NCBI GenBank assembly: GCA_036787895.1
Contig: DAIQOK010000007.1
Coordinates: 42,883-106,882, forward strand
Origin: Bacteroidota bacterium
GTDB taxonomy: Bacteria; Bacteroidota; Bacteroidia; UBA7662
Length of the DNA: 64,000 nucleotides
Reading direction: 5' to 3'
Position 1 is the stretch's first letter. Every line of letters begins with the position of its first letter. The notes below the pieces were generated by a model. The model was not told where the DNA came from. It searched no databases and saw only the letters and a program-made list of their open reading frames with translations. The translations under genes were made by a program, and so were the position numbers. This document shows, one piece after another, positions 113 through 22,900 of this stretch.

Positions 113-3100
113 ATGAAATCTATCGTTTTTATCGATACCGAAATTGAGCCTAAAAGCTTGCGGATACTGGATATAGGGGGCATTAAGAGCGATGGCAGTT
201 CTTTTCATAAAACTTCGCCTCTTGATTTTATTCAGTTTTTAAAAGGAGTAAAGTTTATTGCGGGGCACAACGTTTTAAATCACGATTACAAATATATTGG
301 CAACCTAATTACTGAGGCCGGCATTGCTCATGATGACCTCATAGATACATTATTCTTATCTCCTTTGCTTTTTCCTGCCAAGCCTTATCATACTTTATTA
401 AAAGACGACAAGCTGCAAACGGAAGAGATGAACAATCCTTTGAACGATGCCATAAAGGCAAAGGAATTGTTTGACGATGAGCTTGCTGCCTTTCAACAGC
501 TGGATGAAACGCTGAAACAGATTTTTTACAATTTGTTGTTTGACAAAAGGGAGTTTATCGCCTTTTTCCGTTTTTTGGAATACAAAGGGGGTTCACTTGA
601 TACCGAAACATTAATTCGACAAGTATTTAAAAAAGAGTTGTGTACACAGGCCAATCTTTCCCAAATAATTAGCGAAAAACCTATTGAACTGGCCTATTGT
701 ATATCGCTGATTCATGCTTTGGTTAAAAACAAAAAAACACATTCTATCACGCCCCCATGGGTGCTGCATAACTTTCCGGATGTTGAAAATATAATGTATC
801 GTTTGCGCAACCAGCCATGTGTAAGTGGCTGTGAGTATTGCAACAATGCTTTGGATATACACAAAGGACTTACTAGATTTTTTGGATTTGATAAGTTTAG
901 AACATATGCCGGTGAGCCCCTCCAGGAAAAAGCAGCCAAGGCGGCCATTAACAACAAATCGATTTTGGCCATTTTCCCTACCGGTGGCGGTAAATCAATT
1001 ACTTTTCAGCTGCCAGCCTTAATGAATGGTGAGCAAGCAAGGGGATTAACGGTTGTAATTTCCCCCTTACAATCGTTGATGAAAGACCAGGTTGATAATC
1101 TGGAAAGAATTGGCATAACAGATGCTGTTACCATTAATGGTTTACTAGATCCTATAGAAAGAGCCAAATCGTTTGAAAGGGTAGCCGATGGTTCAGCCAC
1201 TATCTTGTATATCTCGCCCGAATCGCTGCGGTCAAAGACAATTGAACGTTTATTACTGGGCAGAAACATCGTCCGATTTGTGATAGATGAAGCACACTGT
1301 TTTTCTTCCTGGGGCCAGGATTTTAGGGTTGATTATTTGTACATAGGCGATTTCATTAAACAGCTCCAGGAAAAGAAAAATCTTTCGGAAGGCATACCCG
1401 TTTCCTGTTTTACCGCAACAGCAAAACAGAAAGTAATTGAAGATATACGAGAATATTTTAAAGATAAACTATCGCTAGATCTTGAATTATTTACCTCCCA
1501 AGCAACGCGAACCAATCTCCAATACAAAGTATTTCAAAAAGGCACTGAAGATGAAAAATATCAAGAAGCCAGAGCCTTGATAGAAGCCAAAAATTGTCCT
1601 ACAATTATTTATGTTTCCAGAACTCGAAAAGCTTATTTACTGGCTGAAAGATTGTGCATGGATGGTTTTATTGCCAAGCCCTATCACGGCAAAATGGACA
1701 AACAGGAAAAGTCAGAAAACCAGGATTCGTTTATTAACGGTGAAACCCAAATAATGGTAGCAACTTCTGCTTTTGGTATGGGGGTTGATAAAAAGGATGT
1801 TGGCATGGTGATTCATTATGAAATATCCGACTCACTCGAAAATTACATACAAGAAGCCGGGAGAGCTGGGAGAGATGAAAATATAGTTGCAGATTGTTTT
1901 GTACTCTACAACGAAGAAGATTTAAGCAAACATTTTATCCTATTAAATCAGACTAAACTCTCGATTAAAGAGATACAACAAGTTTGGAAAGCCATCAAAG
2001 ATATCACCAAATTTCGTTCGAGTGTTTCAAACTCCGCTCTCGAAATAGCTAGAAAAGCAGGCTGGGATGACAATGTGGTTGAAATAGAAACCCGGGTAAC
2101 CACGGCAATTGCAGCTCTGGAAGATGCCGGCTATTTAAAACGCGGGCAAAATATGCCTCGAATTTTTGCTAATAGTATTCTATCAAAAAATGCTCAAGAG
2201 GCCATTGATAAAATTTGTGCTTCTGAAAAATTTGAAGAAAAGCAAAAAGAAACCGCTATTCGAATCATTAAAAAGCTCTTTTCCAGTAAAAGTAGAACAC
2301 AATCGGCAGAAGATCCAGCCGAATCAAGGGTAGATTATATCAGCGATCATTTAGGTATTCTAAAAAAAGATGTAATAAACATCATCAACTTGCTTCGTGA
2401 AGAGAAGATTTTAGCCGATAATAAAGATTTAACTGCATTTATAAAAAAAGGGGAGAATAAAAATCGTTCACTCAACATAGTTGAGAATTATCGAAAAATA
2501 GAAAACTTCCTTCTAACGAAATTTAGTCAGGAGGAAAAAACATTTCACATCAAAGAACTGAATGAAGAAGCCGAAAGTCAAGGCTGTGATGAGGTATCGC
2601 CCAGTAAAATTAAAACACTCATCAATTTTTGGGCAATTAAAAATTGGATTAGGCGTCAAAACTTACAATATTCAAAGAACCATTTTTCCGCCGTCTCACT
2701 CTATAGTCCTGATAGTTTAAAAGAAAAATTAGAGAAACGACATGTGTTGAGTGAATTCATTATTAATTTACTTCATACAAGAAGTAGTGCAAATAGTGAA
2801 AGCAAAGAAGAGGAAGTTTTAGTTGAGTTTTCTGTACATGAATTAAAATCAGCTTATGAAAAACTACCTGATTTATTTAAACTAGCCATAGGCATAGAGG
2901 ATATTGAAGACGCCCTCTTTTACCTATCCAGGATAGAAGCACTTAAAATTGAAGGTGGGTTTTTAGTGGTCTACAACAGTTTAACCATCGAACGCATTGA
3001 ACAAGACACTAAACGGCGTTATAAAGTTGAAGATTACCAAAAGCTCAATCAGTTTTATGAAAACAAAGTGCAGCAAATTCATATTGTTGGTGAGTATGCC

Positions 3101-4918
3101 AAAAAAATGATCAACGACTACAGAGAGGCATTACAATTTGTAGAAGATTATTTTCAACTCAATTATCAGTCATTTCTAAATAAATACTTCAAGGGCAGTC
3201 GTCAGAATGAAATCAAAAGAAATTTAACCCCTGAGAAATTCAAACAACTCTTTGGAGAACTGTCTCCAACCCAATTAAAAATTATAAACGACAACGAAAG
3301 TAAACACATAGCGGTTGCTGCCGGCCCCGGTAGCGGAAAAACACGGGTTTTGGTTCATAAATTGGCATCGTTGTTACTGATGGAAGATGTAAAACATGAG
3401 CAATTGCTTATGCTTACATTTTCACGGGCTGCTACTACAGAGTTTAAAAAGCGATTATTAAAACTTATTGGAAATGCAGCGAATTTCATCGAAATAAAAA
3501 CCTTTCACTCTTATTGTTTCGATTTATTAGGTAAGGTTGGTAGCCTTGAAAAGTCAGATGTAGTTTTGAAAAAGACCATTGACAAAATCAAACGAAAAGA
3601 AGTTGAGTCAAGTAGGATTACCAAAACCGTTTTGGTAATTGACGAAGCCCAGGACATGAACGAGGATGAATACAACCTAATAGCTACGTTGATGGAGGAA
3701 AACGAGGAAATGCGCGTAATAGCCGTAGGAGACGACGATCAGAATATTTACGAATTCAGAGGTGCCAGTTCCAAATATCTAGAACGTTTTATAAAAGAAA
3801 ACAATGCAAGTAAGCATGAAATTTTAGAAAATTACAGAAGTAAAAGTAATTTGGTAACACTTACAAATCACTTCGCAGCCACTATTCAACACCGTTTAAA
3901 AAGCACGCCCATCGTTGCCAAACAAACAGATTATGGAAAGTTAAAATTAGTTCGTTATCAAAGTGGAAAACTAATAAGTCCGCTGGTAGAGGGTGTATGT
4001 AGTGCTGAATTAAGGGGGACTAGCTGTGTGCTTACCAAAACCAATGAAGAAGCACAGCAAATAACCGGTCTGTTGTTAAAGAATAAACTTCAAGCAAAAT
4101 TGATTCAATCGAATGAAGGTTTTAGTTTATACAACCTTTTAGAGGTTCGTTTCTTTTTAGATCAACTTAAATTGTCAGATGATGTATTCGTTATTTCTGA
4201 TGAGGTTTGGGATAATGCCATTAGAGCATTAAAAAGCAAGTTTCAACGCAGCACGAAATTTGAAATATGTTTGAATATCATAAAGGATTTTAAAGAAGTC
4301 AACCCCAAAAGGAAATACAAATCTGATTTAGAAGTATTCATACGTGAATCCAAGATGGAAGACTTCTACAATGAGCACGGAGAAACTATTTTCGTATCTA
4401 CCATTCACAAAGCAAAAGGCAAAGAGTTTGACAACGTTTTCCTGATGCTTGACAACATCACAGCAAATAGCGATGAGGCCAAAAGACAATTGTATGTAGC
4501 CTTGACCAGGGCCAAACAACAATTGGTTATACATACTAATTCAACAGTTTTTGATACTATTTCGGCCGAACAGTTGGAAAGAATAGTTGACTTTGATCAA
4601 TACGAACAGCCCAAAGAGCTGGTCATGCATTTAAACTTAAAAGATGTGTGGCTTGACTATTTTATTGACAAACAAAATGCAATAGCAGAACTCATAGCCG
4701 GAGATATGTTGGTTATAAAGAACGATGAATGTTTGAATTCAAAAGGGGATTCTATTTTAAGGTTTTCAAGACATTTTTTGGCACAAATTGACGAATTACA
4801 AGAGAAAGGCTATCAATTGAAGTCAGGCAAGGTAAACTTCATCGTGTACTGGTTAAAGGAAGGCACTACGAATGAGGTAAGAGTTGTTTTGCCAGAGCTT
4901 TATTTTGAGAAAGTTTAG
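113..4918 (+). CDS. Large multidomain DNA-processing protein: N-terminal DnaQ/epsilon-like 3'-5' exonuclease, RecQ-family SF2 helicase core, uncharacterised ~350-aa middle region, C-terminal UvrD/PcrA-like SF1 helicase core
   Basis: The protein starts with a DEDD-type exonuclease signature (FIDTEIE ... HNVLNHDYKYI). RecQ motifs follow: motif I FPTGGGKSITFQLPAL, motif II FVIDEAHCFSSWGQDFRVDY (DEAH), motif III FTATA, motifs V-VI MVATSAFGMGVDKKDVGMVIHYEISDSLENYIQEAGRAGRD. UvrD motifs lie in the C-terminal third: motif I AAGPGSGKTRVL, motif Ia LTFSRAATTEF, motif II VIDEAQDMNEDEY, motif III GDDDQNIYEFRGA, motif IV NYRS, motif V STIHKAKGKEFDNVF, motif VI LYVALTRAK. It is a single uninterrupted 1601-aa ORF with ATG at 113. 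Confidence 0.8.
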   Translation: MKSIVFIDTEIEPKSLRILDIGGIKSDGSSFHKTSPLDFIQFLKGVKFIAGHNVLNHDYKYIGNLITEAGIAHDDLIDTLFLSPLLFPAKPYHTLLKDDKLQTEEMNNPLNDAIKAKELFDDELAAFQQLDETLKQIFYNLLFDKREFIAFFRFLEYKGGSLDTETLIRQVFKKELCTQANLSQIISEKPIELAYCISLIHALVKNKKTHSITPPWVLHNFPDVENIMYRLRNQPCVSGCEYCNNALDIHKGLTRFFGFDKFRTYAGEPLQEKAAKAAINNKSILAIFPTGGGKSITFQLPALMNGEQARGLTVVISPLQSLMKDQVDNLERIGITDAVTINGLLDPIERAKSFERVADGSATILYISPESLRSKTIERLLLGRNIVRFVIDEAHCFSSWGQDFRVDYLYIGDFIKQLQEKKNLSEGIPVSCFTATAKQKVIEDIREYFKDKLSLDLELFTSQATRTNLQYKVFQKGTEDEKYQEARALIEAKNCPTIIYVSRTRKAYLLAERLCMDGFIAKPYHGKMDKQEKSENQDSFINGETQIMVATSAFGMGVDKKDVGMVIHYEISDSLENYIQEAGRAGRDENIVADCFVLYNEEDLSKHFILLNQTKLSIKEIQQVWKAIKDITKFRSSVSNSALEIARKAGWDDNVVEIETRVTTAIAALEDAGYLKRGQNMPRIFANSILSKNAQEAIDKICASEKFEEKQKETAIRIIKKLFSSKSRTQSAEDPAESRVDYISDHLGILKKDVINIINLLREEKILADNKDLTAFIKKGENKNRSLNIVENYRKIENFLLTKFSQEEKTFHIKELNEEAESQGCDEVSPSKIKTLINFWAIKNWIRRQNLQYSKNHFSAVSLYSPDSLKEKLEKRHVLSEFIINLLHTRSSANSESKEEEVLVEFSVHELKSAYEKLPDLFKLAIGIEDIEDALFYLSRIEALKIEGGFLVVYNSLTIERIEQDTKRRYKVEDYQKLNQFYENKVQQIHIVGEYAKKMINDYREALQFVEDYFQLNYQSFLNKYFKGSRQNEIKRNLTPEKFKQLFGELSPTQLKIINDNESKHIAVAAGPGSGKTRVLVHKLASLLLMEDVKHEQLLMLTFSRAATTEFKKRLLKLIGNAANFIEIKTFHSYCFDLLGKVGSLEKSDVVLKKTIDKIKRKEVESSRITKTVLVIDEAQDMNEDEYNLIATLMEENEEMRVIAVGDDDQNIYEFRGASSKYLERFIKENNASKHEILENYRSKSNLVTLTNHFAATIQHRLKSTPIVAKQTDYGKLKLVRYQSGKLISPLVEGVCSAELRGTSCVLTKTNEEAQQITGLLLKNKLQAKLIQSNEGFSLYNLLEVRFFLDQLKLSDDVFVISDEVWDNAIRALKSKFQRSTKFEICLNIIKDFKEVNPKRKYKSDLEVFIRESKMEDFYNEHGETIFVSTIHKAKGKEFDNVFLMLDNITANSDEAKRQLYVALTRAKQQLVIHTNSTVFDTISAEQLERIVDFDQYEQPKELVMHLNLKDVWLDYFIDKQNAIAELIAGDMLVIKNDECLNSKGDSILRFSRHFLAQIDELQEKGYQLKSGKVNFIVYWLKEGTTNEVRVVLPELYFEKV

Positions 4919-5329
4919 GCTAACTGAGATAAAATCACAATTAGTTGACAATCCATCTCTCTGTGCTGCCGCAAAAAGCCGAATCGGGATAATACTACTG
5001 TCGTTCCGGCAACAGCAACAAACGCCCCGCCAAAGGTGCCTGGGCATAAGGCCCGTGGCTTTCGTGCATATCGGGACACATCAGCACCCAGCATTGGACT
5101 TCATAAACCGTAACAGGCCCCTCCTGTTGAACATTATTGTATTCTACGAAAAAAATGTATCTAATACCGGTTTATAAAACAGTCGAGTATTCGGAAAATA
5201 TATCACTAAAATTTCTGCCGGATATGTTTACACATCACGCAACCAACAACACATGGATCGGGAGAAAAATACTGTAGCAAATTGAGGCGGTATAAACCTA
5301 AATTTTGACATTACAACATAATAACAATT

Positions 5330-5447: not shown

Positions 5448-5870
5448 ATGACAGATAAACAAAAATCTCGAGAGAACAAATTGACAAAGTCAGTAAAGGT
5501 TTGTTGTGCTATAATTCTTAATGAGAAAAAAACACTTGTAGTTCAACGTAGTGAAAAGATGTCGTTACCTCTGAAATGGGAGTTTCCAGGTGGTAAAATA
5601 GAATTTGGAGAAACGGAAGAAGAATGTGTCCTTAGAGAGATAAAAGAGGAATTGAATATTGAAATTATCCTTATATCTAGATTAACCCCAACAACATTTT
5701 TTTATCCCAATATTGTGGTACATTTAGTTCCATTTTTGGCCGTATTTTCAAGGGGTGAGATGAAATTATCCGAACATATAAATTACAAATGGTTACAAAA
5801 GGATAAACTTGCTGAATTGGATTGGGCAGAAGCAGATATTCCAATATTAAAAGAATATATCAATATATGA
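5448..5870 (+). CDS. NUDIX hydrolase (MutT-like)
   Basis: The Nudix box GGKIEFGETEEECVLREIKEELNI fits the GX5EX7REUXEEXGU consensus. The protein is 140 aa. Its stop codon TGA overlaps the start codon of the next gene (ATGA at 5867-5870). Confidence 0.85.
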   Translation: MTDKQKSRENKLTKSVKVCCAIILNEKKTLVVQRSEKMSLPLKWEFPGGKIEFGETEEECVLREIKEELNIEIILISRLTPTTFFYPNIVVHLVPFLAVFSRGEMKLSEHINYKWLQKDKLAELDWAEADIPILKEYINI

Positions 5871-8800
5871 TAGAGGGTATTTACGAAGAGCTGGTAACGC
5901 AACTTGTAAGGCAAAATATAGGTGCTTTAGACCAGAGTTCATTCTATATTGAGAAGAGCGTTTTAGACAAAGAAGAGGCTGCAACAATTCTTGCCAAGCA
6001 TCTTGGTCAAACCATAAAACATGCCTTGAGCTATATTAAAGGCGAAAAATCTATAGAACTACAAATAGAGATTGCTAATAAAATTATATTATTTCTGAAA
6101 GAGGAACTGAAAAGAGAAGAATTTGATCAAGATCTTATAGCCATAGAGGGTGAAATATTGAAGGCTGTCTTTTCAAAAATTGATGCGCAATTTTCAGACA
6201 TAAACCTTCATTTAAAAGAAATTACCCCTTATACGCGACTAACACATAGTGAGCTCTTTACTGGTGGAAATGTGGGTTTGTCGCTAGAAAGCGAACTAAA
6301 AAAAGAGATTCTCTCAGCAAATGAAATTGATTTGCTCGTTTCCTTTATCAAGTTTAAAGGTATCATTATACTCGAAAGGGAATTGCGTGAGTTTGCAAAA
6401 CGTGGCGGAAAATTGCGCGTAATTACCACCACGTATATGGGCGCATCAGACTACAAGGCTATCCAGCTCTTGTCCAAATTACAGAATGCAGAAATAAGGA
6501 TATCCTACAATAATGGCAATGAACGCCTGCATGCCAAGGCTTATCTTTTCAAAAGGTCTACAGGTTTTCATACGGGATATATTGGTTCTTCCAATTTTTC
6601 GCGTTCAGCCCTTACTGATGGTTTAGAATGGAACCTGAAAATCACAACCAAAGAGGTAAGTCACATTATTGATAAGTTTCAGAAGACGTTTGATTCATAT
6701 TGGGTGAGTGATGATTTCGAAAAGTTTGATGATAGTATTCATAAGGAGAAATTGATTAGCTCACTGAATCAAGGAAGAATTGGAAAATCTACCTCATTAA
6801 ATACTAATTTTTTTGATGTTAAACCCTTTCCATTTCAGGAGGAAATACTTGAAAAGCTTGATGTTGAGCGTACAAAGCACCATAGAAATAGAAATCTAGT
6901 TGTAGCCGCAACCGGCACTGGTAAAACCGTTATTTCTGCATTTGATTTCAACAGATTCAAGAAAGATAACAGCTCTGCTAAGCTTCTTTTTTTAGCGCAT
7001 AGAAGGGAAATCCTAGAACAATCCATGAGTGCTTTTCGAGGCATTCTAAAAGATAACAATTTTGGCGAGTTATGGGTGGGAGGGATTGAACCTACGAGTT
7101 ATGAACATATTTTTGCATCCATTCAAATATTAAATAATCGTTTAAACGATTTAAATCTTTCTCCACAATATTTTGACTATATAGTAATTGATGAGTGTCA
7201 CCATTTAACTGCAAACTCTTATCGAGGAATCATTAATTATTTCAAGCCTAAAGTTTTAATTGGATTAACTGCCACGCCTGAACGAATGGATGGTGGAGAT
7301 ATTCAAGAAGATTTTCATCACCGAATTGCCGCTGAAATTCGATTGCCAGAAGCCCTAAACAGAAAGTTGTTATGCCCGTTTCAATATTTCGGAATTACAG
7401 ATAGTATAGATCTTTCTCGTATAGGGTGGGAACGCGGGCGATATATAGCCAGTGAATTGTCATCTATTTACACAGCAAACGATAAAAGGATTCGTGAAAT
7501 TATTGACGCATTAGAAAAGTATACCAGAGAACCTAGTGATGTTCGTGCACTTGGGTTTTGCGTAACTATGGAGCACGCCAAGTTTATGGCTGAGAAGTTT
7601 GCGCTTGCTGGACTCAAAGCAGATTATCTAACAAGCGACAACACCCAACACCGAGATAGTGTTAAAGAAATGTTGCTCAGGAAAGAAATTAATTACCTTT
7701 TTGTGGTTGATATTTTTAATGAAGGTGTTGATATTCCGGAAATTGATACCGTTTTGTTTTTAAGGCCAACAGAAAGTCTAACAATATTCTTACAGCAACT
7801 AGGTCGGGGGTTGCGTTTGGCAGAAAATAAAGAGGTCCTAACTGTTTTAGATTTCGTAGGAAATTCTAGACCTGAGTACAATTTTGAAAACAAATTCAGG
7901 GCACTCATTGGCAAAACCGCAACCACTGTAAAAAAAGAAATTGAAGACAATTTTCCGCATTTACCATTAGGCTGCTCTGTAATTTTGGAGAAAAAGGCAA
8001 AGCAGATTATTCTTGAGAATATCACGGCAGCCACTTCGCTCAACAGAAAACAACTAATTCTAAAGATTCAAAGCTTTCAACATCAAACATTACTCGATTT
8101 AAACTTGAAGAATTTTATAGAATTTTATAATATCCCACTTCAATTGATCTATAAGCGCGGGAGCTGGAAAAGACTTTGCCATGAGGCTGGTAGGATTAAA
8201 GATTTTGAAAGTACTAACGAAAAACAAATTGTAAATGCCATTTCAAATAAATGGCTTTCGTGTAACTCATTAAGCTATTTTGAGTTTGTTCGAACTTTAG
8301 CAGAAAATCAATTTAATATATCTGGAATTAAGTTCAATAAAGCTGAGAAGCAAATGCTTTTGATGCTACATTATGATGTTTGGCAAAGTGCAGGCGGCTT
8401 TTCTTCTTTAAAAAATAGTATTGAAGAATTGGGGAAAAACCAGATATTAATTGATGAAATAATAGAAGTCTTGAATATTTTAATTGACAGAGTTGACTTC
8501 AAAGAAATAGACATTGACCTACCCTACCAACAGCCCTTAAAAGTTCATGCGCGTTACACTAGAGATCAAATATTAGCGGCTTTTGGCCTTAGTACCTTTG
8601 AAAAAAAATCTTCAAACCGTGAAGGTGCTGCTGTAAATTTAGCACTGAATACAGAGCTTTTATTTATCAATTTAATTAAGTCAGAAGAAAACTTCTCTCC
8701 TACCACCATGTATGATGACTATGCGATTAATGAAAACCTGTTTCATTGGCAAAGTCAAAATTCAGCAGGCCCAGAAACTCCTAAAGGTTTGTCCTACTTA

Positions 8801-9007
8801 GACCATGAACGGAATCAAAAGAAAATATTACTTTTTATTCGCGAGAAGAATAAAGATGAATTTGGCAATACTCAGGGCTATGTGTTTGTAGGCGAAGCAA
8901 ATTTGCGAGATCATTATGGTGCAAAACCAATGAACATAAAATGGGAGTTGAATGAGCCTTTGCCCCATTTTTTGTGGCATGATGCAGCAAAACTGAGGGT
9001 GGGTTAG
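5867..9007 (+). CDS. PLD-family (HKD) nuclease domain + SF2 ResIII/DEAH-type helicase + C-terminal DUF3427-like domain protein
   Basis: An HKD-type motif RLHAKAYLF ... GSSNFS lies in the N-terminal third. Helicase motif I is VVAATGTGKTVISAF, motif II is IVIDECHHLT, motif III is GLTATPER, and motif VI is QQLGRGLR. The C-terminal ~250 aa (HARYTRDQILAAFG ... GYVFVGEANL) resembles DUF3427, which commonly follows this helicase type. I place the start at ATG 5867, overlapping the NUDIX stop. The ORF track begins at 5822 with a non-ATG start. Confidence 0.8.
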   Translation: MIEGIYEELVTQLVRQNIGALDQSSFYIEKSVLDKEEAATILAKHLGQTIKHALSYIKGEKSIELQIEIANKIILFLKEELKREEFDQDLIAIEGEILKAVFSKIDAQFSDINLHLKEITPYTRLTHSELFTGGNVGLSLESELKKEILSANEIDLLVSFIKFKGIIILERELREFAKRGGKLRVITTTYMGASDYKAIQLLSKLQNAEIRISYNNGNERLHAKAYLFKRSTGFHTGYIGSSNFSRSALTDGLEWNLKITTKEVSHIIDKFQKTFDSYWVSDDFEKFDDSIHKEKLISSLNQGRIGKSTSLNTNFFDVKPFPFQEEILEKLDVERTKHHRNRNLVVAATGTGKTVISAFDFNRFKKDNSSAKLLFLAHRREILEQSMSAFRGILKDNNFGELWVGGIEPTSYEHIFASIQILNNRLNDLNLSPQYFDYIVIDECHHLTANSYRGIINYFKPKVLIGLTATPERMDGGDIQEDFHHRIAAEIRLPEALNRKLLCPFQYFGITDSIDLSRIGWERGRYIASELSSIYTANDKRIREIIDALEKYTREPSDVRALGFCVTMEHAKFMAEKFALAGLKADYLTSDNTQHRDSVKEMLLRKEINYLFVVDIFNEGVDIPEIDTVLFLRPTESLTIFLQQLGRGLRLAENKEVLTVLDFVGNSRPEYNFENKFRALIGKTATTVKKEIEDNFPHLPLGCSVILEKKAKQIILENITAATSLNRKQLILKIQSFQHQTLLDLNLKNFIEFYNIPLQLIYKRGSWKRLCHEAGRIKDFESTNEKQIVNAISNKWLSCNSLSYFEFVRTLAENQFNISGIKFNKAEKQMLLMLHYDVWQSAGGFSSLKNSIEELGKNQILIDEIIEVLNILIDRVDFKEIDIDLPYQQPLKVHARYTRDQILAAFGLSTFEKKSSNREGAAVNLALNTELLFINLIKSEENFSPTTMYDDYAINENLFHWQSQNSAGPETPKGLSYLDHERNQKKILLFIREKNKDEFGNTQGYVFVGEANLRDHYGAKPMNIKWELNEPLPHFLWHDAAKLRVG

Positions 9008-9484: not shown

Positions 9485-10084
9485 TCAATCTTCTCCCTTC
9501 AAAGTAATCAAATCAAAATACATCAATCTCGTGGACAAAGGTATGCTGGGTTCATGTCCAGTGTGTTCTGCTTCCTGTTTTTCGGTACTGAATATAAACT
9601 CGAAGCTATTGTCTTGATAATACTTTAGGGGTGCAGCTTGGTTATAGGCATCTACAACGATGAAGCGACATCCGGTTTTATTTTGTTCATCTACAAACCA
9701 AGATTTAATAAAATCCATCAGTTCTTTGCCGATTCCTCTTTTTTTAAAGTCTTCTGCAACACCCAAGCGACCAATTAATACTGCAGGATAACTTCTTATG
9801 TGTTTCTCTCTTGGAACATCCTTGATAACCTTCTTTTTCCGGCTGCCTGGCATTCCATTTACTTTTATGCTGTCGTTGGATATTGTGAATGCACAAACCA
9901 TTTGACATGGAGATTCATCGGTAGTGAATACATAAGTTTTGCCAAGCAATTCTCTGGCATAAGCCAATGCCTCGTTTTCAAAAAAGTCGTTTAAGTCTGC
10001 ATTTCCACAGTCGAGTGGTTTGCAGGATTTGAAAAGATCTGCCGTGAGCAGTTGCAATTGGCAATGTTCGAGCAGATAACCCAA
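9485..10084 (-). CDS. GNAT-family N-acetyltransferase, toxin-like (candidate type II TA toxin)
   Basis: The 199-aa protein has an acetyl-CoA-binding GNAT core (VLIGRLGVAEDFKKRGIGKELM). It is preceded 11 bp upstream by a small ORF. Its position in the island and its size class are consistent with GNAT toxins, but the toxin assignment is inferential. Confidence 0.55.
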   Translation of the reverse strand: MGYLLEHCQLQLLTADLFKSCKPLDCGNADLNDFFENEALAYARELLGKTYVFTTDESPCQMVCAFTISNDSIKVNGMPGSRKKKVIKDVPREKHIRSYPAVLIGRLGVAEDFKKRGIGKELMDFIKSWFVDEQNKTGCRFIVVDAYNQAAPLKYYQDNSFEFIFSTEKQEAEHTGHEPSIPLSTRLMYFDLITLKGED

Positions 10085-19956: not shown

Positions 19957-22900
19957 TTATTCTGATTTAACGAACTTACCAAAGGAGAGTTTCGATTGCA
20001 TTTCCAAGCGATAACTATATGCACCGGAAGCAAAACCTTCAATGTTTACATCAATTCGGCTTAAACCTGCATCAACCTGAATTGTTTTAACTTTTCTTCC
20101 CATAGCATCGAAAATATCCAAAGTCGCACCCTTTTCAACTTGCTCATTTATTTCAATAGAAATTTGGTTGGTTGCTGGGTTTGGATATAATACGCTATTG
20201 ATTAGTCCTAAGTTCTGAGTGCTCGTGGTATTTGAAATAGTCACACAGCTCGTGTCATTAGCGCGGTTATTATCTCCTGGCATGAGTGTGAAAGCACAGA
20301 GCTCAAAAGTCATACCCTGGGTCGGGTTCCATTGCTCTGAAAAGCTGTGTTGAAGTGAATCACCAGCTGCAATGCTTGCCAATATGGTATTGGTACGGAT
20401 AAAGTTGCCCGGCATTACGCGATAACTTACATCAAAACCAGTTGCCGGAATCTGACCAAAATTACGAATCATGACAGTCACCGTTTGTGGCGAATTAACT
20501 ATAGCTCCATTAGCAGGTGACACTATGCGATAAACACCTACGTCTGGCAACTGTTGGTTAACAAAAACGGTTACAGTATCACGTTTCACACAATTGCCAT
20601 CGCTGTAGGTAGCCACATAGGTTGTAGTGACTGTTGGGCGCACGACAAATTGACGTCCTTGACCGAGATATACGCCCGCTAAGGTACTCCAGCCGACTGT
20701 ATCATTGCTAATTAGAGTATAACCTCTATTCAAATAACCAATGCTCGAAACAGTATCTGCGGAGTTCAAGCTCCAGTCGTTGGCACTATTGGTGTCGAAA
20801 ATTGTCTTGCGGAACAAACCAACTACTGATGCACTTCCTGAAATATTACTATTACTTGGCCATTCTGAAGCCGGAACTCCAAATGATGAAGGAAAATCTG
20901 CAGAATTATATCTTACCGCATCAATTACGGTAGTTCCATTTGATTCATAGAGTACAACAGCAGCAGGACTGGTACTCGATAGCCATTCATTATTATCGGC
21001 ACCTCCTAAGAAGTACAGATTGTTGGCTATATCGTTGGCAGCTGTACCTGGCATAATTATCGCCACAGCACCAGGAGCCAGGACTGCTCCAGTCGGGAAG
21101 GTTAATTGATGGGTAATTGTGCCAATAGCTGCTTTAACTACCAAACCGGCAAGATTTACCGGGGATGTGCTGATATTACTAATTTCTACATAGTCGTCAT
21201 CAACACTTGTGTTTGGTAAATAAGGAGGGAAAGTCGTTTGCCTTGTAGTTGCACTTCCTCCTTTATAATACATAAACTCAGAGATCAGCAGAGCACCTTG
21301 TCCACCAGAACTACCCCCGCGAGTAGTGGTGGATAGAATAGCTGAGTCACCAACACTTATGGTTTGGTCTGGACCAGCATTTATGAACAGATAGTCATCT
21401 GCATACAATTGGACTGCTGATACTGTTGTAATACTTGTGCTGCTTACGGTTTCTACGAAATAGCGTACTGTATCTCCTGACGCTGCTGCCGGTATGGTTG
21501 CAGTATAATAATTACCCGATAAGGTCATTGGCAATGACGTGGTCGTGCCATTATTTACAGTGTATTTGAGACTAACCGTATTCAACAGAGGTACTGAAAA
21601 AATCCGGGCAGCAACTGTTTTTGCAGTTGGGCTACAAGCTGGAGTTACAGCAGTAATTGAGTCAAATCTCGCATCAGCAGGTACAAAAAACATGAGGTCA
21701 TCAACAATGTTGACAGATGGTGGTGCGCCAGCGTAATTATAGCGCACATTGGAATGAAGGGTAATTTTAACAGTGTCGCCCACAAAATCATCCAAATCAT
21801 ATTCCAAACGCATGGTATCGGTATTACTAGCCGCCGAAACCGCTATAAAATCTGTAGTGGTTCGGCCCATTGCAGCCAAAGGCTGGCCATTAACCAGTAC
21901 TCTAAAATGCGTGCTGTTTGCAGCCCGGTACAATTGCAGCAATTTAAAGCTCAATTTAAGGCGCTGAATTTGAGACGCATCAACGTAATAGTCGACATAT
22001 GTCTGAAAAGCTGGATTTAAAGTGTGCCAGTTTGTATTGTTCGCAGTAACCCAAGGGGTTCCGGATGCATTGCCAGAAAGTACTAAGCTATGCGTTCCAG
22101 AAATATTCAGACTAGTACTGCCGCCTGTTGCGAGAACTTCAGCATTTGAGTTAGCGCCATTAACAACACATAATGAAGCTGGAAGCACGCCTGAATCGAA
22201 ATTATCTGTATGAGGAACGCTTAATACAGTGCTTACGCCAATATTGTATTGTACAGTTACAGTGTCATTAGCAGTATTAACATCGCCTGATTTACCGGCC
22301 CATACACGAAGCGTATTCACACCTGAAAGCAGTTGAACTTGCTGACGAAAAACATAGGTAACTACTTGAGCACTTGAGAGGCTGGTAAAGACAGTATCCG
22401 TGACAACCGGTCCGTTGTTGTGCTGATAAAACACTATAGTGCTATCCAGGTTTAAAGTACCGGCATTTACTACTTCAATTGAAACGGCAGATAAAAGATT
22501 CGTCAAACACACCACTCCCGGAGCATATATATTACCACCTGATATGATAGATGCGCTGTTTATTGCAGCATCAACACCAGCAGGAACAAATTCCAAGGCG
22601 CCCATATCCGGAGAAGCCGATCTATTCTGGCCATTCAAATCCTGTGTAACGAACGCGAGTAAATTTGCTCCGGAATTATTCAAAAATACATTTGAAGGCG
22701 TAAAATTATCTGCTGGCAAATTAATAAAATCAGGATTTACTGCCACACTGTTAGAGTCATAAGGCGTTCCAACACCCCCTGCTGCTTTCCAGTCGGCCAT
22801 TGTAGTCCTGGCACTGCTTCGGTAACCAATATGTGCAAGACCCGTAGATCCTGGAGGGGTTTGAATCCAAAATGCATTGTGATCTGTTTCCAATTGAGTT

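What the first reader, a model, noticed from the sequence alone, without database searches (positions are those of the whole stretch)
5448..9007. MutT-like NUDIX hydrolase translationally coupled to a PLD-nuclease / SF2-helicase / DUF3427-like protein: candidate two-gene nuclease-helicase module
The NUDIX stop and the helicase start overlap (ATGA at 5867-5870), which implies co-translation. The downstream protein has an HKD phospholipase-D-family nuclease motif N-terminal to a ResIII/DEAH helicase, and a C-terminal region resembling DUF3427. A PLD nuclease fused to a restriction-type helicase is a recurrent architecture in restriction-like and anti-phage proteins. I cannot match this pair to a named system from memory. 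The NUDIX partner could hydrolyse a nucleotide signal, a (deoxy)nucleotide pool, or a nucleotide-derived cap or second messenger.
Basis: partly seen in the sequence, partly recalled or inferred. Interest (0 to 1): 0.8.

Follow-up and report, generated by a model that had tools for sequence, protein, structure and literature searches.

The report
SauUSI-type restriction enzyme with NUDIX partner
This gene pair is a Bacteroidota copy of an already described bacterial defence module: a SauUSI-type enzyme that cuts foreign DNA carrying methylated cytosine, plus a small nucleotide-cleaning enzyme whose role next to it has never been worked out.

Summary
A 140-aa NUDIX gene (5448-5870) overlaps by ATGA a 1046-aa gene (5867-9007) encoding PLD nuclease, SF2 helicase and DUF3427. 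All catalytic motifs are intact, and the pair lies in a low-GC island.

It is not an unnamed system. The large protein belongs to the SauUSI family of ATP-dependent Type IV restriction enzymes, which cut DNA only when it is modified (PADLOC mREase_IV 2.8e-235; PDB 7CLG by sequence and by predicted fold). The NUDIX's best solved relative, 5X1X, is sequence-identical to the S. aureus NUDIX encoded immediately upstream of SauUSI. Xu et al. (2011) reported this linkage, and Monk et al. (2012) showed the NUDIX is dispensable for restriction.

New here:
- A NUDIX flanks 22 of 61 species-level homologue loci, upstream or downstream, and is the only recurrent neighbour.
- Related NUDIXs also sit beside a VcaM4I-like EVE-HNH 5mC/5hmC-dependent enzyme.
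- The clade is closer to two characterised 5-methyl-dCTP pyrophosphatases (B. fragilis 3GWY, E. coli NudG) than to MutT.

I infer that the NUDIX destroys 5-methyl- and 5-hydroxymethyl-dCTP. This would either keep host DNA free of the mark or starve phages that use modified cytosine. No experiment has tested this.

Verdict: a new member of a known kind, of modest interest.

The parts
5448..5870 (+). NUDIX hydrolase gene (140 aa as called; the conserved part starts at about aa 14, so the TTG at 5481 is a possible alternative start)
   Evidence: Pfam NUDIX 1e-17 and NUDIX_4 5e-14. Best PDB relative is 5x1x at 1e-27, which is identical to the S. aureus NUDIX upstream of SauUSI. Second best is 3gwy at 2e-19.
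5592..5660 (+). Nudix box G49-x5-E55-x7-R63-E64-I65-x-E67-E68-x-N70-I71, the catalytic metal-binding motif
   Evidence: Read directly from the translation and aligned with MutT, NudG, 3gwy and 5x1x.
5823..5843 (+). C-terminal motif W126-A-E-A-D130-I-P. Asp130 aligns with Asn119 of E. coli MutT.
   Evidence: Alignment. The 'A-D' is present in all 30 restriction-enzyme-linked NUDIXs (26 by pattern match, 4 more by eye), and in NudG and 3gwy. MutT has 'A-N'.
5867..5870 (+). ATGA stop/start overlap (translational coupling)
   Evidence: Sequence. The same 4-bp overlap occurs in L001, L011, L014, L015, L018, L019, L021, L046 and L069.
5867..9007 (+). SauUSI-family Type IV (modification-dependent) ATP-dependent restriction endonuclease gene, 1046 aa
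   Evidence: PADLOC mREase_IV PDLC03659 2.8e-235 over aa 119-1043 and PDLC03658 3.9e-88. PDB 7clg (SauUSI) 1.8e-87 by sequence. AlphaFold model (pLDDT 81) matches 7clg over about 950 columns at E 1e-43; the next hit is RadD at 3e-16.
5867..6226 (+). N-terminal helical extension (about aa 1-120). SauUSI has no match to it and the PADLOC model does not cover it. Function unknown.
   Evidence: Alignment ranges. Helices H5-20, H35-55, H62-81 and H109-119 in the model. Conserved among full-length relatives.
6314..6706 (+). Single PLD-family nuclease domain (aa about 150-280) with H222-x-K224, G240-S241-x-N243 and E254 (core at 6530-6628)
   Evidence: Pfam PLDc_2 1.6e-13 and RE_NgoFVII 1.2e-7. The residues are invariant in A1. 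They correspond to SauUSI H119-K121-N139-E150 (PMC3141236).
6818..7819 (+). SF2 helicase/translocase motor: ResIII plus Helicase_C. Walker A at 6902-6928, DECHH at 7190-7204, motif VI at 7793-7816.
   Evidence: Pfam ResIII 3.8e-40 and Helicase_C 6e-11. Motif residues invariant.
8222..8983 (+). DUF3427 target-recognition domain (SRA-like modified-cytosine reader). D951 and W961 (8717-8749) align with SauUSI pocket residues D858 and W868.
   Evidence: Pfam DUF3427 1.4e-29. Second HMMER segment to 7clg. D951, W961, Y949 and G920 invariant. Pocket residues taken from PMC7913695.
1..10300 (.). Low-GC island holding the module (context, not part of the mechanism). It runs to the left edge of the window.
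   Evidence: GC 0.31-0.41 here against 0.47-0.53 from about 10500 onward. DNA similarity to other loci starts inside the NUDIX gene and stops exactly at the restriction-enzyme stop codon.

Best explanation
This is a two-gene Type IV restriction module of the SauUSI kind, acquired horizontally by a Bacteroidota chromosome.

Gene 2 makes the effector (well supported by homology). By homology to SauUSI, its DUF3427/SRA-like C-terminal domain flips out and recognises a modified cytosine (5mC/5hmC) in incoming DNA. The SF2 motor then uses ATP to translocate. Two subunits dimerise to form one PLD active site, which cuts the DNA repeatedly. No methyltransferase is needed because the host's own DNA lacks the mark.

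Gene 1 is a dispensable accessory (role inferred, not shown). It is a MutT-fold NUDIX of the NudG/3GWY type. Its most likely activity is hydrolysis of 5-methyl-dCTP and 5-hydroxymethyl-dCTP to the monophosphates plus pyrophosphate. The pay-off is one or both of:
(a) Self-protection. Modified dCTP recycled from degraded foreign DNA is kept out of the host chromosome, which would otherwise become a substrate for gene 2. This is the functional mirror image of the methyltransferase in a classical R-M system.
(b) A second defence layer. Phages that build their DNA from hm-dCTP are starved. This would include glucosylated phages, provided (as recalled for T4, not checked here) glucose is added only after replication and glucosylated DNA escapes the nuclease.

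Shown: domain identities, motif integrity, homology to the SauUSI pair, recurrent linkage, island context. Inferred: substrate modification, ATP dependence and dimerisation of this particular enzyme, the NUDIX substrate, and its physiological role.
For: Restriction-enzyme identity:
- PADLOC mREase_IV 2.8e-235, near full length.
- 7clg SauUSI 1.8e-87 by sequence, and the top fold match over the whole chain at E 1e-43.
- All nuclease and motor motifs invariant.
- TRD is DUF3427 at 1.4e-29, with D951, W961, F933 and I934 matching SauUSI D858, W868, F841 and I842.
- DUF3427 proteins of other architectures bind 5mC/5hmC DNA and restrict T4gt (PMC6765204).
- No DNA methyltransferase flanks the pair.

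The pair is orthologous to the S. aureus pair:
- 5x1x is identical to the S. aureus NUDIX, which ends 1 bp before the sauUSI start.
- The linkage was published in PMC3141236.

The linkage is selected:
- 22 of 61 informative species loci have a NUDIX within 300 bp: 14 upstream and 8 downstream. Adjacency has therefore survived changes in gene order.
- It is the only recurrent neighbour.
- In the reverse direction, 31 of 75 informative metagenomic NUDIX relatives abut such an enzyme.
- A non-homologous NTP pyrophosphohydrolase (MazG-like) recurs at 4 of these loci and on an L. plantarum plasmid.

NUDIX substrate:
- 3gwy (Q5LBB1) has kcat/Km of 4.8e6 for 5-Me-dCTP and 4.4e6 M-1 s-1 for 5-hm-dCTP, with far lower activity on canonical NTPs (PMC5158307).
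- NudG prefers 5-Me-dCTP.
- A profile of 30 restriction-enzyme-linked NUDIXs scores 3gwy at 146 bits, NudG at 121 and MutT at 91.
- In an NJ tree MutT is the outgroup.
- All linked NUDIXs carry Asp where MutT has Asn119.
- About 50%-identical NUDIX relatives sit beside a VcaM4I-like EVE-HNH enzyme (6yex, 3.6e-82). The main property I see it sharing with SauUSI is 5mC/5hmC-dependent cleavage.

Accessory status: the S. aureus nudix deletion keeps restriction (PMC3312211), and many close homologues of the restriction enzyme lack the NUDIX.
Against: - No biochemical data exist for this subfamily of the enzyme or for any restriction-enzyme-linked NUDIX.
- SauUSI Y831, which contacts the methyl group, and M829 appear not to be conserved (window E919-G920-A921). 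The recognised modification could therefore differ.
- NUDIX specificity is poorly predictable at 28-40% identity. The window protein misses the NCBIfam equivalog cut-offs for both NudG (75.8 against 156 bits) and MutT (75.5 against 97.9).
- The characterised 3gwy-type gene is itself stand-alone and not next to a restriction gene.
- The PADLOC PDC-S07 model also hits E. coli MutT at 6e-39, so that hit says nothing specific about defence.
- About 64% of homologue loci have no NUDIX, and the S. aureus deletion had no reported phenotype. Any role must be conditional.
- Whether bacteria generate meaningful 5m-dCTP by salvage is not established here.
- The NJ tree is small and has no bootstrap support.
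Confidence: 0.6

Rival explanations
1. The NUDIX is an ordinary housekeeping MutT (8-oxo-dGTP sanitiser) that merely hitch-hikes with the restriction gene and has no functional tie to it.
For: NCBIfam scores MutT (TIGR00586, 75.5 bits) about the same as NudG (75.8), both below cut-off. Sources annotate homologues as '8-oxo-dGTP diphosphatase'. The S. aureus deletion does not affect restriction. The PADLOC PDC-S07 profile cannot tell it from E. coli MutT.
Against: Adjacency recurs across phyla in both gene orders and with 4-bp overlaps, and the NUDIX is the only recurrent neighbour. It travels inside the low-GC cassette. Sequence is closer to 3gwy and NudG than to MutT. The position of MutT Asn119 is Asp in all linked NUDIXs. 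Relatives also flank other modification-dependent nucleases.
Confidence: 0.12
2. The NUDIX regulates or signals: it hydrolyses a nucleotide second messenger, NAD/ADP-ribose derivative or RNA cap that switches the nuclease-helicase on or off. This was one of the first reader's suggestions.
For: NUDIX enzymes with such substrates occur in other conflict systems (PMC7159879). Translational coupling implies a fixed stoichiometry or co-expression.
Against: No cyclase, TIR, SIR2, CARF/SAVED or other signal-generating or signal-sensing domain is present in either protein or in the flanks. SauUSI restricts alone in vitro and in E. coli. All close characterised relatives are (d)NTP pyrophosphohydrolases of minimal MutT size. 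The partner is missing from two thirds of loci.
Confidence: 0.05
3. The NUDIX removes pyrophosphate or nucleotide by-products of the motor's ATP/dATP hydrolysis. This was the suggestion made in the original SauUSI paper.
For: Proposed in PMC3141236. SauUSI uses ATP or dATP.
Against: Helicase motors release ADP and phosphate, not pyrophosphate. From general knowledge of the family, NUDIX enzymes cleave nucleoside-diphosphate-X compounds and are not inorganic pyrophosphatases. The idea does not explain the same NUDIX beside an ATP-independent EVE-HNH enzyme.
Confidence: 0.03
4. The large protein is not modification-dependent. It would be a restriction-like nuclease-helicase that senses something else, such as unmodified DNA, a different modified base, or replication structures. 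In that case the NUDIX acts on a different modified dNTP.
For: The TRD diverges from SauUSI: only a weak second HMMER segment, and Y831/M829 are not conserved. It matches a different PADLOC sub-model (PDLC03659) than SauUSI proper. No member of this subfamily has been characterised in the literature I searched.
Against: The whole-chain fold match is to SauUSI. D858 and W868 equivalents are invariant. DUF3427 domains in three other enzymes bind 5mC/5hmC DNA. There is no methyltransferase partner, which an enzyme cutting unmodified DNA would need.
Confidence: 0.15

Closest known systems
SauUSI (S. aureus SAUSA300_2431; PDB 7CLG) with its upstream NUDIX SAUSA300_2432 (same sequence as PDB 5X1X)
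   Same: Same two-gene layout, with the NUDIX immediately upstream on the same strand. The spacer is 1 bp in S. aureus and a 4-bp overlap here. Same domain order: single PLD nuclease, SF2 motor, DUF3427/SRA-like TRD. Catalytic residues are equivalent (H119/K121/N139/E150 against H222/K224/N243/E254). No methyltransferase. The NUDIX is the reciprocal closest solved relative.
   Different: Only about 34% identity in the nuclease-motor part, and the TRD is barely alignable by sequence. It belongs to a sister subfamily (PADLOC PDLC03659 rather than PDLC03658). It has an extra helical N-terminal region of about 100 aa. SauUSI's methyl-contacting Y831 and M829 are not conserved. The host is Bacteroidota rather than Bacillota. 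The NUDIX is about 40% identical.
Bacteroides fragilis Q5LBB1 (PDB 3GWY), a 5-substituted (d)CTP pyrophosphohydrolase
   Same: Minimal MutT-fold NUDIX at 38% identity (E 2e-19). Shares the C-terminal W-A-E-A-D motif. It is 50-53% identical to the restriction-enzyme-linked NUDIXs of L069 and L049.
   Different: Its gene is stand-alone in a housekeeping context, not beside a restriction gene. Its activity has been measured, whereas the window protein's has not.
E. coli NudG (Orf135; PDB 2RRK), a pyrimidine (deoxy)nucleoside triphosphate / 5-methyl-dCTP diphosphatase
   Same: Same fold, size and A-D motif. It groups with the linked NUDIXs in the tree.
   Different: 28% identity. The score is below the NCBIfam equivalog cut-off. 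It is a chromosomal house-cleaning gene.
VcaM4I / TspA15I EVE-HNH modification-dependent endonucleases (PDB 6YEX)
   Same: They target 5mC/5hmC DNA. Relatives of the window NUDIX are encoded 15-442 bp from HNH_2-domain genes at four loci, and the L119 one matches VcaM4I over its full length.
   Different: Unrelated reader (EVE) and nuclease (HNH), and no ATP motor. Not present in this window.
Human DCTPP1 and MazG-like all-alpha NTP pyrophosphatases
   Same: A functional analogy. DCTPP1 clears 5-methyl-dCTP from the pool (abstracts listed). MazG-like genes recur beside SauUSI-family genes.
   Different: A different fold from NUDIX. None is in this window.

Membership tests
SauUSI-family Type IV modification-dependent restriction endonuclease | N-terminal single PLD-family nuclease domain with HxK ... 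N ... E catalytic residues | tested here: met
   PLDc_2 1.6e-13. H222, K224, N243 and E254 are invariant in 22 sequences and map to SauUSI H119/K121/N139/E150.
SauUSI-family Type IV modification-dependent restriction endonuclease | Central SF2 (DExH) ATPase/translocase with intact Walker A, motif II, motif III and motif VI | tested here: met
   ResIII 3.8e-40 and Helicase_C 6e-11. Motif residues invariant.
SauUSI-family Type IV modification-dependent restriction endonuclease | C-terminal DUF3427 / SRA-like target-recognition domain | tested here: met
   DUF3427 1.4e-29. The predicted structure aligns with 7clg over about 950 columns at E 1e-43.
SauUSI-family Type IV modification-dependent restriction endonuclease | Flipped-5mC pocket residues of SauUSI (M829, Y831, F841, I842, D858, W868) | tested here: inconclusive
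   F933/I934, D951 and W961 match F841/I842, D858 and W868. M829-G830-Y831 seems to align with E919-G920-A921. The alignment in this stretch is uncertain.
SauUSI-family Type IV modification-dependent restriction endonuclease | No cognate DNA methyltransferase in the operon | tested here: met
   The flanking genes are a helicase fusion (113-4918) and a GNAT (9485-10084). The only methyltransferase annotated in 1-39 kb is an RNA U5-methyltransferase with a TRAM domain.
SauUSI-family Type IV modification-dependent restriction endonuclease | ATP-dependent cleavage of 5mC/5hmC DNA but not unmodified DNA; dimer with one shared PLD site | not testable with these tools
   Needs biochemistry. Inferred from SauUSI.
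SauUSI-linked NUDIX (SAUSA300_2432 / PDB 5X1X type; listed by PADLOC as PDC-S07) | MutT-fold NUDIX encoded directly beside, and co-oriented with, a SauUSI-family gene | tested here: met
   ATGA overlap. 5x1x is the best PDB hit at 1e-27 and is identical to the S. aureus neighbour. The PDC-S07 hit is 6e-46, but that profile is not specific, since E. coli MutT scores 6e-39.
NudG/3GWY-type 5-methyl-dCTP pyrophosphohydrolase | Intact Nudix box, and closer to NudG/3GWY than to MutT | tested here: met
   Box intact. PDB E-values: 3gwy 2e-19, NudG 1e-12, MutT 6e-10. Profile scores 146, 121 and 91 bits.
NudG/3GWY-type 5-methyl-dCTP pyrophosphohydrolase | Passes the curated equivalog threshold for NudG (NCBIfam NF007834) | tested here: not met
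   75.8 bits against a cut-off of 156. It is not an equivalog of E. coli NudG, and the claim rests on 'works like'.
NudG/3GWY-type 5-methyl-dCTP pyrophosphohydrolase | Preferential hydrolysis of 5-methyl- and 5-hydroxymethyl-dCTP | not testable with these tools
   Measured only for 3gwy and NudG.
MutT 8-oxo-dGTP diphosphatase | Equivalog threshold (TIGR00586 / NF008044) and the Asn119 8-oxoG-reading residue | tested here: not met
   75.5 against 97.9 bits and 66.2 against 148 bits. The aligned residue is Asp130.
Classical Type I / Type III restriction-modification | Res/HsdR helicase-nuclease working with a Mod/HsdM methyltransferase (and HsdS) | tested here: not met
   Only partial helicase-core hits to REase_I and REase_III models. 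No methyltransferase or specificity subunit nearby.

The most novel reading that the evidence does not exclude
The NUDIX partner is a dedicated 5-methyl- and 5-hydroxymethyl-dCTP pyrophosphatase that serves as a shared accessory of unrelated modification-dependent nucleases, possibly including PDC-S41/DUF2075 helicase-nucleases. It would act as the pool-level counterpart of Type IV restriction. It would either provide 'immunity' by keeping the restricted mark out of host DNA, or attack hm-dCTP-dependent phages upstream of DNA synthesis, including glucosylated phages if their DNA escapes the nuclease. I found no paper in the searchable library that states or tests this.
Probability: 0.4. Interest if true: 0.6.

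Novelty: new member of a known kind. Interest (0 to 1): 0.3.

Why it matters
As an annotation this is routine. It adds a Bacteroidota member of a sister subfamily to the SauUSI family and shows the cassette moving between orders at about 80% identity.

The useful part is the fifteen-year-old loose end, namely what the conserved NUDIX next to SauUSI does. The comparative data here turn it into a specific, cheap experiment. If the enzyme is a 5m/5hm-dCTPase, Type IV restriction would have a nucleotide-pool arm. That bears on how modification-dependent enzymes avoid autoimmunity, and on defence against phages with modified cytosine.

It is also a practical warning: the PADLOC 'PDC-S07' call cannot distinguish this partner from an ordinary MutT.

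Tried and rejected
1. PADLOC PDC-S07 as evidence that the NUDIX is a defence gene. Rejected: the same profile scores E. coli MutT at 6e-39. The MutT and NudG sequences I used were checked as identical to 1mut and 2rrk.
2. Expectation that the biochemically characterised 3gwy gene would itself sit beside a SauUSI-like gene. It does not. B. fragilis-type and Parabacteroides-type copies are stand-alone.
3. Vsr as a third module component. It lies just upstream of the NUDIX in Cyclobacterium salsum, but there is none in the window and it is not recurrent in 80 loci.
4. The upstream 1601-aa helicase fusion as part of the module. It has no counterpart next to the pair in any fetched locus.
5. Mobile-element boundaries. 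There are no tRNA genes in the window, and no integrase among the ORFs I annotated in or next to the island. DNA similarity to other loci covers only the two ORFs.
6. Sigma-70 promoter and terminator scans. Counts were at or below the shuffled expectation and are not meaningful for Bacteroidota.
7. Finding the source contig or organism by exact protein look-up.
8. Literature check of NudG substrate-recognition residues (Asp118). Nothing retrievable, so that point stays as unverified memory.
9. Searches for any paper linking a NUDIX to Type IV restriction through modified dCTP. None found.

Full report
OBSERVATION

The two ORFs are real and lie where stated. The NUDIX gene is 5448-5870 (140 aa) and the large gene is 5867-9007 (1046 aa), both on the + strand, and they share ATGA at 5867-5870. 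Pfam finds NUDIX (1e-17) in the first. In the second it finds PLDc_2 (aa 154-279), ResIII (318-473), Helicase_C (546-651) and DUF3427 (786-1039, 1.4e-29). Homologues align from the ATG at 5867, not from the upstream TTG listed by the ORF finder. Most NUDIX homologues are 126-130 aa and start near residue 14 of the called ORF, so a TTG at 5481 is a possible start.

An alignment of the large protein with 21 representatives of 33-53% identity (A1) shows invariant residues at every catalytic motif:
- PLD nuclease: H222, K224, G240, S241, N243, E254
- Walker A: A348-T349-G350-x-G352-K353-T354
- DExH: D442-E443-x-H445
- Motif III: T468-A469-T470
- Motif VI: Q643-Q644-x-G646-R647-G648-x-R650

There is one HKD-type motif, not two. 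The Nudix box G49-x5-E55-x7-R63-E64-I65-x-E67-E68 is intact.

CONTEXT

Window 1 to about 10300 has GC 0.31-0.41, against 0.47-0.53 for the rest. The rest encodes ordinary chromosomal genes: a redoxin, Mfd, universal stress proteins, two-component systems, and a 2795-aa protein with a type IX secretion sorting domain. This places the host in Bacteroidota.

The large protein has relatives of 78-84% identity in Cyclobacterium, Psychroflexus, Yeosuana, Polaribacter, Algoriphagus, Chitinophagales and Spirosomataceae. This is far too similar for vertical descent across orders. DNA similarity to those loci begins inside the NUDIX ORF and ends at the stop codon of the large gene. The pair is therefore a horizontally moving cassette in a variable island, not core genome. 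I found no tRNA and no shared flanks, and no integrase among the ORFs I annotated in or next to the island.

WHAT THE LARGE PROTEIN IS

PADLOC's 'Type IV methyl-directed restriction enzyme' model PDLC03659 matches aa 119-1043 at 2.8e-235. The sister model PDLC03658 matches at 3.9e-88. The best solved relative is 7CLG, SauUSI of S. aureus, at 1.8e-87 over aa 151-764, plus a weak second segment in the C-terminal domain.

An AlphaFold2 model built on A1 (mean pLDDT 81, pTM 0.66) has 7CLG as its top structural match over about 950 aligned columns (E 1e-43, TM 0.61 normalised to the target). The next hits (RadD, 3e-16) cover only the helicase core.

[quoted passage not shown] Its PLD residues H119/K121/N139/E150 (PMC3141236) correspond, with the same spacing to within one residue, to H222/K224/N243/E254. 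SauUSI's recognition domain is SRA-like and flips the modified cytosine into a pocket lined by Y831, F841, I842 and W868, with D858 reading the base and M829 filling the gap left in the duplex (PMC7913695). In the window protein F933/I934, D951 and W961 match F841/I842, D858 and W868, and D951 and W961 are invariant in A1. The M829-G830-Y831 stretch appears to align with E919-G920-A921. So a flipped-cytosine reader is likely, but the exact modification preference cannot be transferred with confidence.

DUF3427 domains in other enzyme architectures bind 5mC/5hmC DNA and restrict the hmC phage T4gt (PMC6765204). No methyltransferase gene accompanies the pair, as expected for a modification-dependent enzyme. 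Relative to SauUSI the protein has an extra helical N-terminal region of about 100 aa with unknown role.

THE PAIR IS ALREADY DESCRIBED

The NUDIX's best solved relative is 5X1X (1e-27). From a S. aureus record I recovered the locus. The NUDIX WP_000755954.1 ends one base before the sauUSI start codon, and its sequence contains the 5X1X sequence exactly. Both window genes are therefore homologues of the two genes of the S. aureus locus.

The published record on this pair is:
- Xu et al. [quoted passage not shown] They counted at least 60 SauUSI-like genes so linked, guessed at pyrophosphate breakdown, and left the function open.
- Monk et al. 2012 deleted it in strain Newman and saw no gain in transformability, so it is not needed for restriction.
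- A 2025 S. suis preprint found PADLOC 'PDC-S07' and Type IV RM co-localised in 23 of 23 cases.
- Later mechanistic SauUSI papers and a 2025 review do not discuss the NUDIX.

HOW TIGHT IS THE LINKAGE (my own counts)

A scan of one genome per species with A1 returned 80 loci of 42-78% identity from Bacteroidota, Gammaproteobacteria, Bacillota, Actinomycetota, Spirochaetia and others. I called ORFs and searched them with a NUDIX profile. The results were:
- Of the 61 loci with at least 500 bp on both sides, 22 have a NUDIX within 300 bp and 2 more have one within 5 kb.
- Fourteen of the 22 lie upstream on the same strand, eight of them with the same 4-bp overlap.
- Eight lie downstream, 2-292 bp away, one of them on the opposite strand.
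- Clustering all neighbours within 2.5 kb shows that NUDIX is the only family that recurs (26 of 80 loci). The next are an HNH_2 protein (5 loci) and a MazG-like NTP pyrophosphohydrolase (4 loci). A clearer MazG-like gene sits on an L. plantarum plasmid where NUDIX, SauUSI-like, MazG-like and GIY-YIG/Schlafen-type helicase genes stand in a row.
- None of the gammaproteobacterial loci fetched, and several near-identical Bacteroidota copies, have a NUDIX.

The partner is strongly selected yet facultative. This agrees with the S. aureus deletion result.

In the reverse direction, I examined 75 informative metagenomic loci carrying NUDIXs 42-61% identical to the window's. Thirty-one abut a SauUSI-family gene whose identity to the window enzyme ranges from 29% to 78%.

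WHAT THE NUDIX PROBABLY DOES

The second-best solved relative, 3GWY (B. fragilis Q5LBB1; 2e-19, 38% identity), has been assayed against 74 substrates. Its kcat/Km values are 6.7e6 for 5-Me-CTP, 4.8e6 for 5-Me-dCTP and 4.4e6 M-1 s-1 for 5-hydroxymethyl-dCTP. It is 50-fold lower on 5-OH-dCTP and much lower on canonical NTPs (PMC5158307). E. coli NudG (2RRK) likewise prefers 5-methyl-dCTP.

Several comparisons place the window NUDIX closer to these two enzymes than to MutT:
- The window NUDIX hits 3GWY (2e-19) and NudG (1e-12) better than MutT (6e-10).
- NudG, but not MutT, retrieves 5X1X and 3GWY at E of 1e-10 or better.
- A profile built only from 30 restriction-enzyme-linked NUDIXs scores 3GWY at 146, NudG at 121 and MutT at 91 bits.
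- In a small neighbour-joining tree MutT is the outgroup, and NudG and 3GWY nest among the linked sequences.
- All 30 linked NUDIXs, NudG and 3GWY have Ala-Asp where MutT has Ala-Asn119. From memory of the MutT literature, not verified here, Asn119 is the residue that reads 8-oxoguanine.

The most telling observation is about neighbours. Among the 44 NUDIX relatives not next to a SauUSI-like gene, four lie 15-442 bp from an HNH_2 protein. The L119 example matches VcaM4I (6YEX) at 3.6e-82 over its full length. VcaM4I is an EVE-HNH enzyme specific for 5mC/5hmC DNA, with no motor and an unrelated reader and nuclease. Seven others lie 7-77 bp from a PADLOC PDC-S41 Schlafen-type/DUF2075 helicase (1e-252). 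That family has already been suspected of working with DUF3427 nucleases. What SauUSI and VcaM4I share is mainly their substrate, DNA with 5-modified cytosine. These are exactly the bases whose triphosphates 3GWY destroys.

MECHANISM I COMMIT TO

Gene 2 is the effector. It recognises modified cytosine, translocates on ATP, and cleaves through a PLD site formed by a dimer, as shown for SauUSI.

Gene 1 hydrolyses 5m- and 5hm-dCTP. There are two non-exclusive pay-offs:
(a) Self-protection. Nucleotides released from shredded modified DNA cannot be recycled into the chromosome, which would otherwise turn it into a target. The upstream, translationally coupled position resembles an immunity gene.
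(b) Pool-level defence against phages that replicate with hm-dCTP. This would include glucosylated phages if, as I recall for T4 without having checked it here, glucose is added only after replication and their DNA resists many Type IV enzymes.

I put about 0.9 on the identity of gene 2 as a SauUSI-family Type IV enzyme. I put about 0.5 on the NUDIX substrate class and about 0.3 on each physiological role.

CAVEATS

- Nothing in this subfamily has been assayed.
- NUDIX specificity is unreliable at this identity, and the protein misses the NCBIfam equivalog cut-offs for both NudG and MutT.
- The 3GWY gene itself is stand-alone.
- The PDC-S07 profile also matches E. coli MutT at 6e-39, so that label carries no specific information.
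- The tree is small and has no bootstrap support.
- Two thirds of loci manage without the NUDIX.
- I did not establish whether bacteria make enough 5m-dCTP by salvage for role (a) to matter.

VERDICT

This is a new member, in a sister subfamily, of a known kind. Interest is modest (0.3). It rests mainly on a concrete and, as far as I could find, unpublished hypothesis for the long-unexplained NUDIX partner.

Noticed in passing
window 113-4918 (+): A 1601-aa protein fuses a RecQ/DpdF-like SF2 helicase (aa about 248-637; PADLOC DpdF 3.7e-96, TIGR recQ_fam above cut-off) to a UvrD/GajB-like SF1 helicase (aa about 1047-1490). Regions 1-245 and 640-1040 are unassigned. It lies in the same low-GC island, immediately upstream of the pair, but no fetched locus has it next to the pair. 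It may be a separate defence gene.
   Followed up: partly
window 4801-5200: A spacer of about 300 bp with host-like GC (0.46) separates the two low-GC genes. It suggests two separate insertions. The ORF at 4884-5177 (97 aa, TTG start) has no Pfam match.
   Followed up: no
window 9485-10084 (-): A GNAT acetyltransferase gene (weak Pfam hits) lies at the right edge of the low-GC stretch. I cannot tell whether it belongs to the island or to the host.
   Followed up: no
window 19957-28344 (-): A 2795-aa protein with a type IX secretion C-terminal sorting domain, a lamin-tail domain, a beta-helix and CARDB. It marks the host as Bacteroidota. GC is lower here (0.41-0.43) than in the neighbouring regions.
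   Followed up: no
L001 9286-9618 (Cyclobacterium salsum WNKG01000007.1): A short Vsr (very-short-patch repair endonuclease, 110 aa, Pfam 1e-31) lies 5 bp upstream of the NUDIX-restriction enzyme pair, with no methyltransferase in sight. Vsr deals with deaminated 5mC, so it fits a '5mC management' theme. I saw it at only this one locus.
   Followed up: partly
L008 3412-8807 (L. plantarum plasmid NZ_CP028230.1): Four genes stand in a row: NUDIX, SauUSI-like, a MazG-like nucleotide pyrophosphohydrolase (Pfam 3.7e-11), and a GIY-YIG plus Schlafen-group-3 helicase. That is two unrelated NTP pyrophosphohydrolases around one Type IV enzyme. Weaker MazG-like ORFs also flank the homologue in L076, L077, L079 and L080.
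   Followed up: partly
L117, L119, L129, L174; L100, L105, L107, L112, L117, L152, L157; L170, L172, L173 (metagenome contigs): NUDIXs about 50% identical to the window's lie next to other nucleases instead of SauUSI-like genes. Four are near HNH_2-domain proteins, and the L119 one matches VcaM4I EVE-HNH (6yex) at 3.6e-82. Seven are near PADLOC PDC-S41 (a 664-aa Schlafen-type/DUF2075 helicase, 1e-252). Three are near a REase_II-like 381-aa protein. This suggests the NUDIX is a shared accessory of several modification-dependent or restriction-like nucleases.
   Followed up: partly
PADLOC model PDLC04899 (PDC-S07): The profile scores E. coli MutT (sequence verified against 1mut) at 6.3e-39. That is nearly as good as true SauUSI-linked NUDIXs (1e-42 to 1e-55). 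Stand-alone 'PDC-S07' calls in defence surveys may simply be housekeeping MutT/NudG genes.
   Followed up: yes
L006 3830-6690 (S. aureus strain 333 'plasmid unnamed2', NZ_CP077890.1): The sauUSI reading frame is broken between about codons 656 and 716 by stops or frameshifts, and the record has no CDS there. It is probably a pseudogene in this strain. The record also looks like a chromosome fragment rather than a plasmid.
   Followed up: no
L032, L034, L036-L045, L051, L053, L071 and plasmid loci L002-L005, L007, L009: None of the gammaproteobacterial homologues fetched (Aeromonas, Shewanella, Pseudoalteromonas, Thalassotalea and others; about 50% identity) has an adjacent NUDIX. The plasmid copies in Hymenobacter, Peptoclostridium, Arthrobacter, Spiroplasma and Neotabrizicola lack one as well. 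I could not test whether a chromosomal NudG-type gene substitutes.
   Followed up: no
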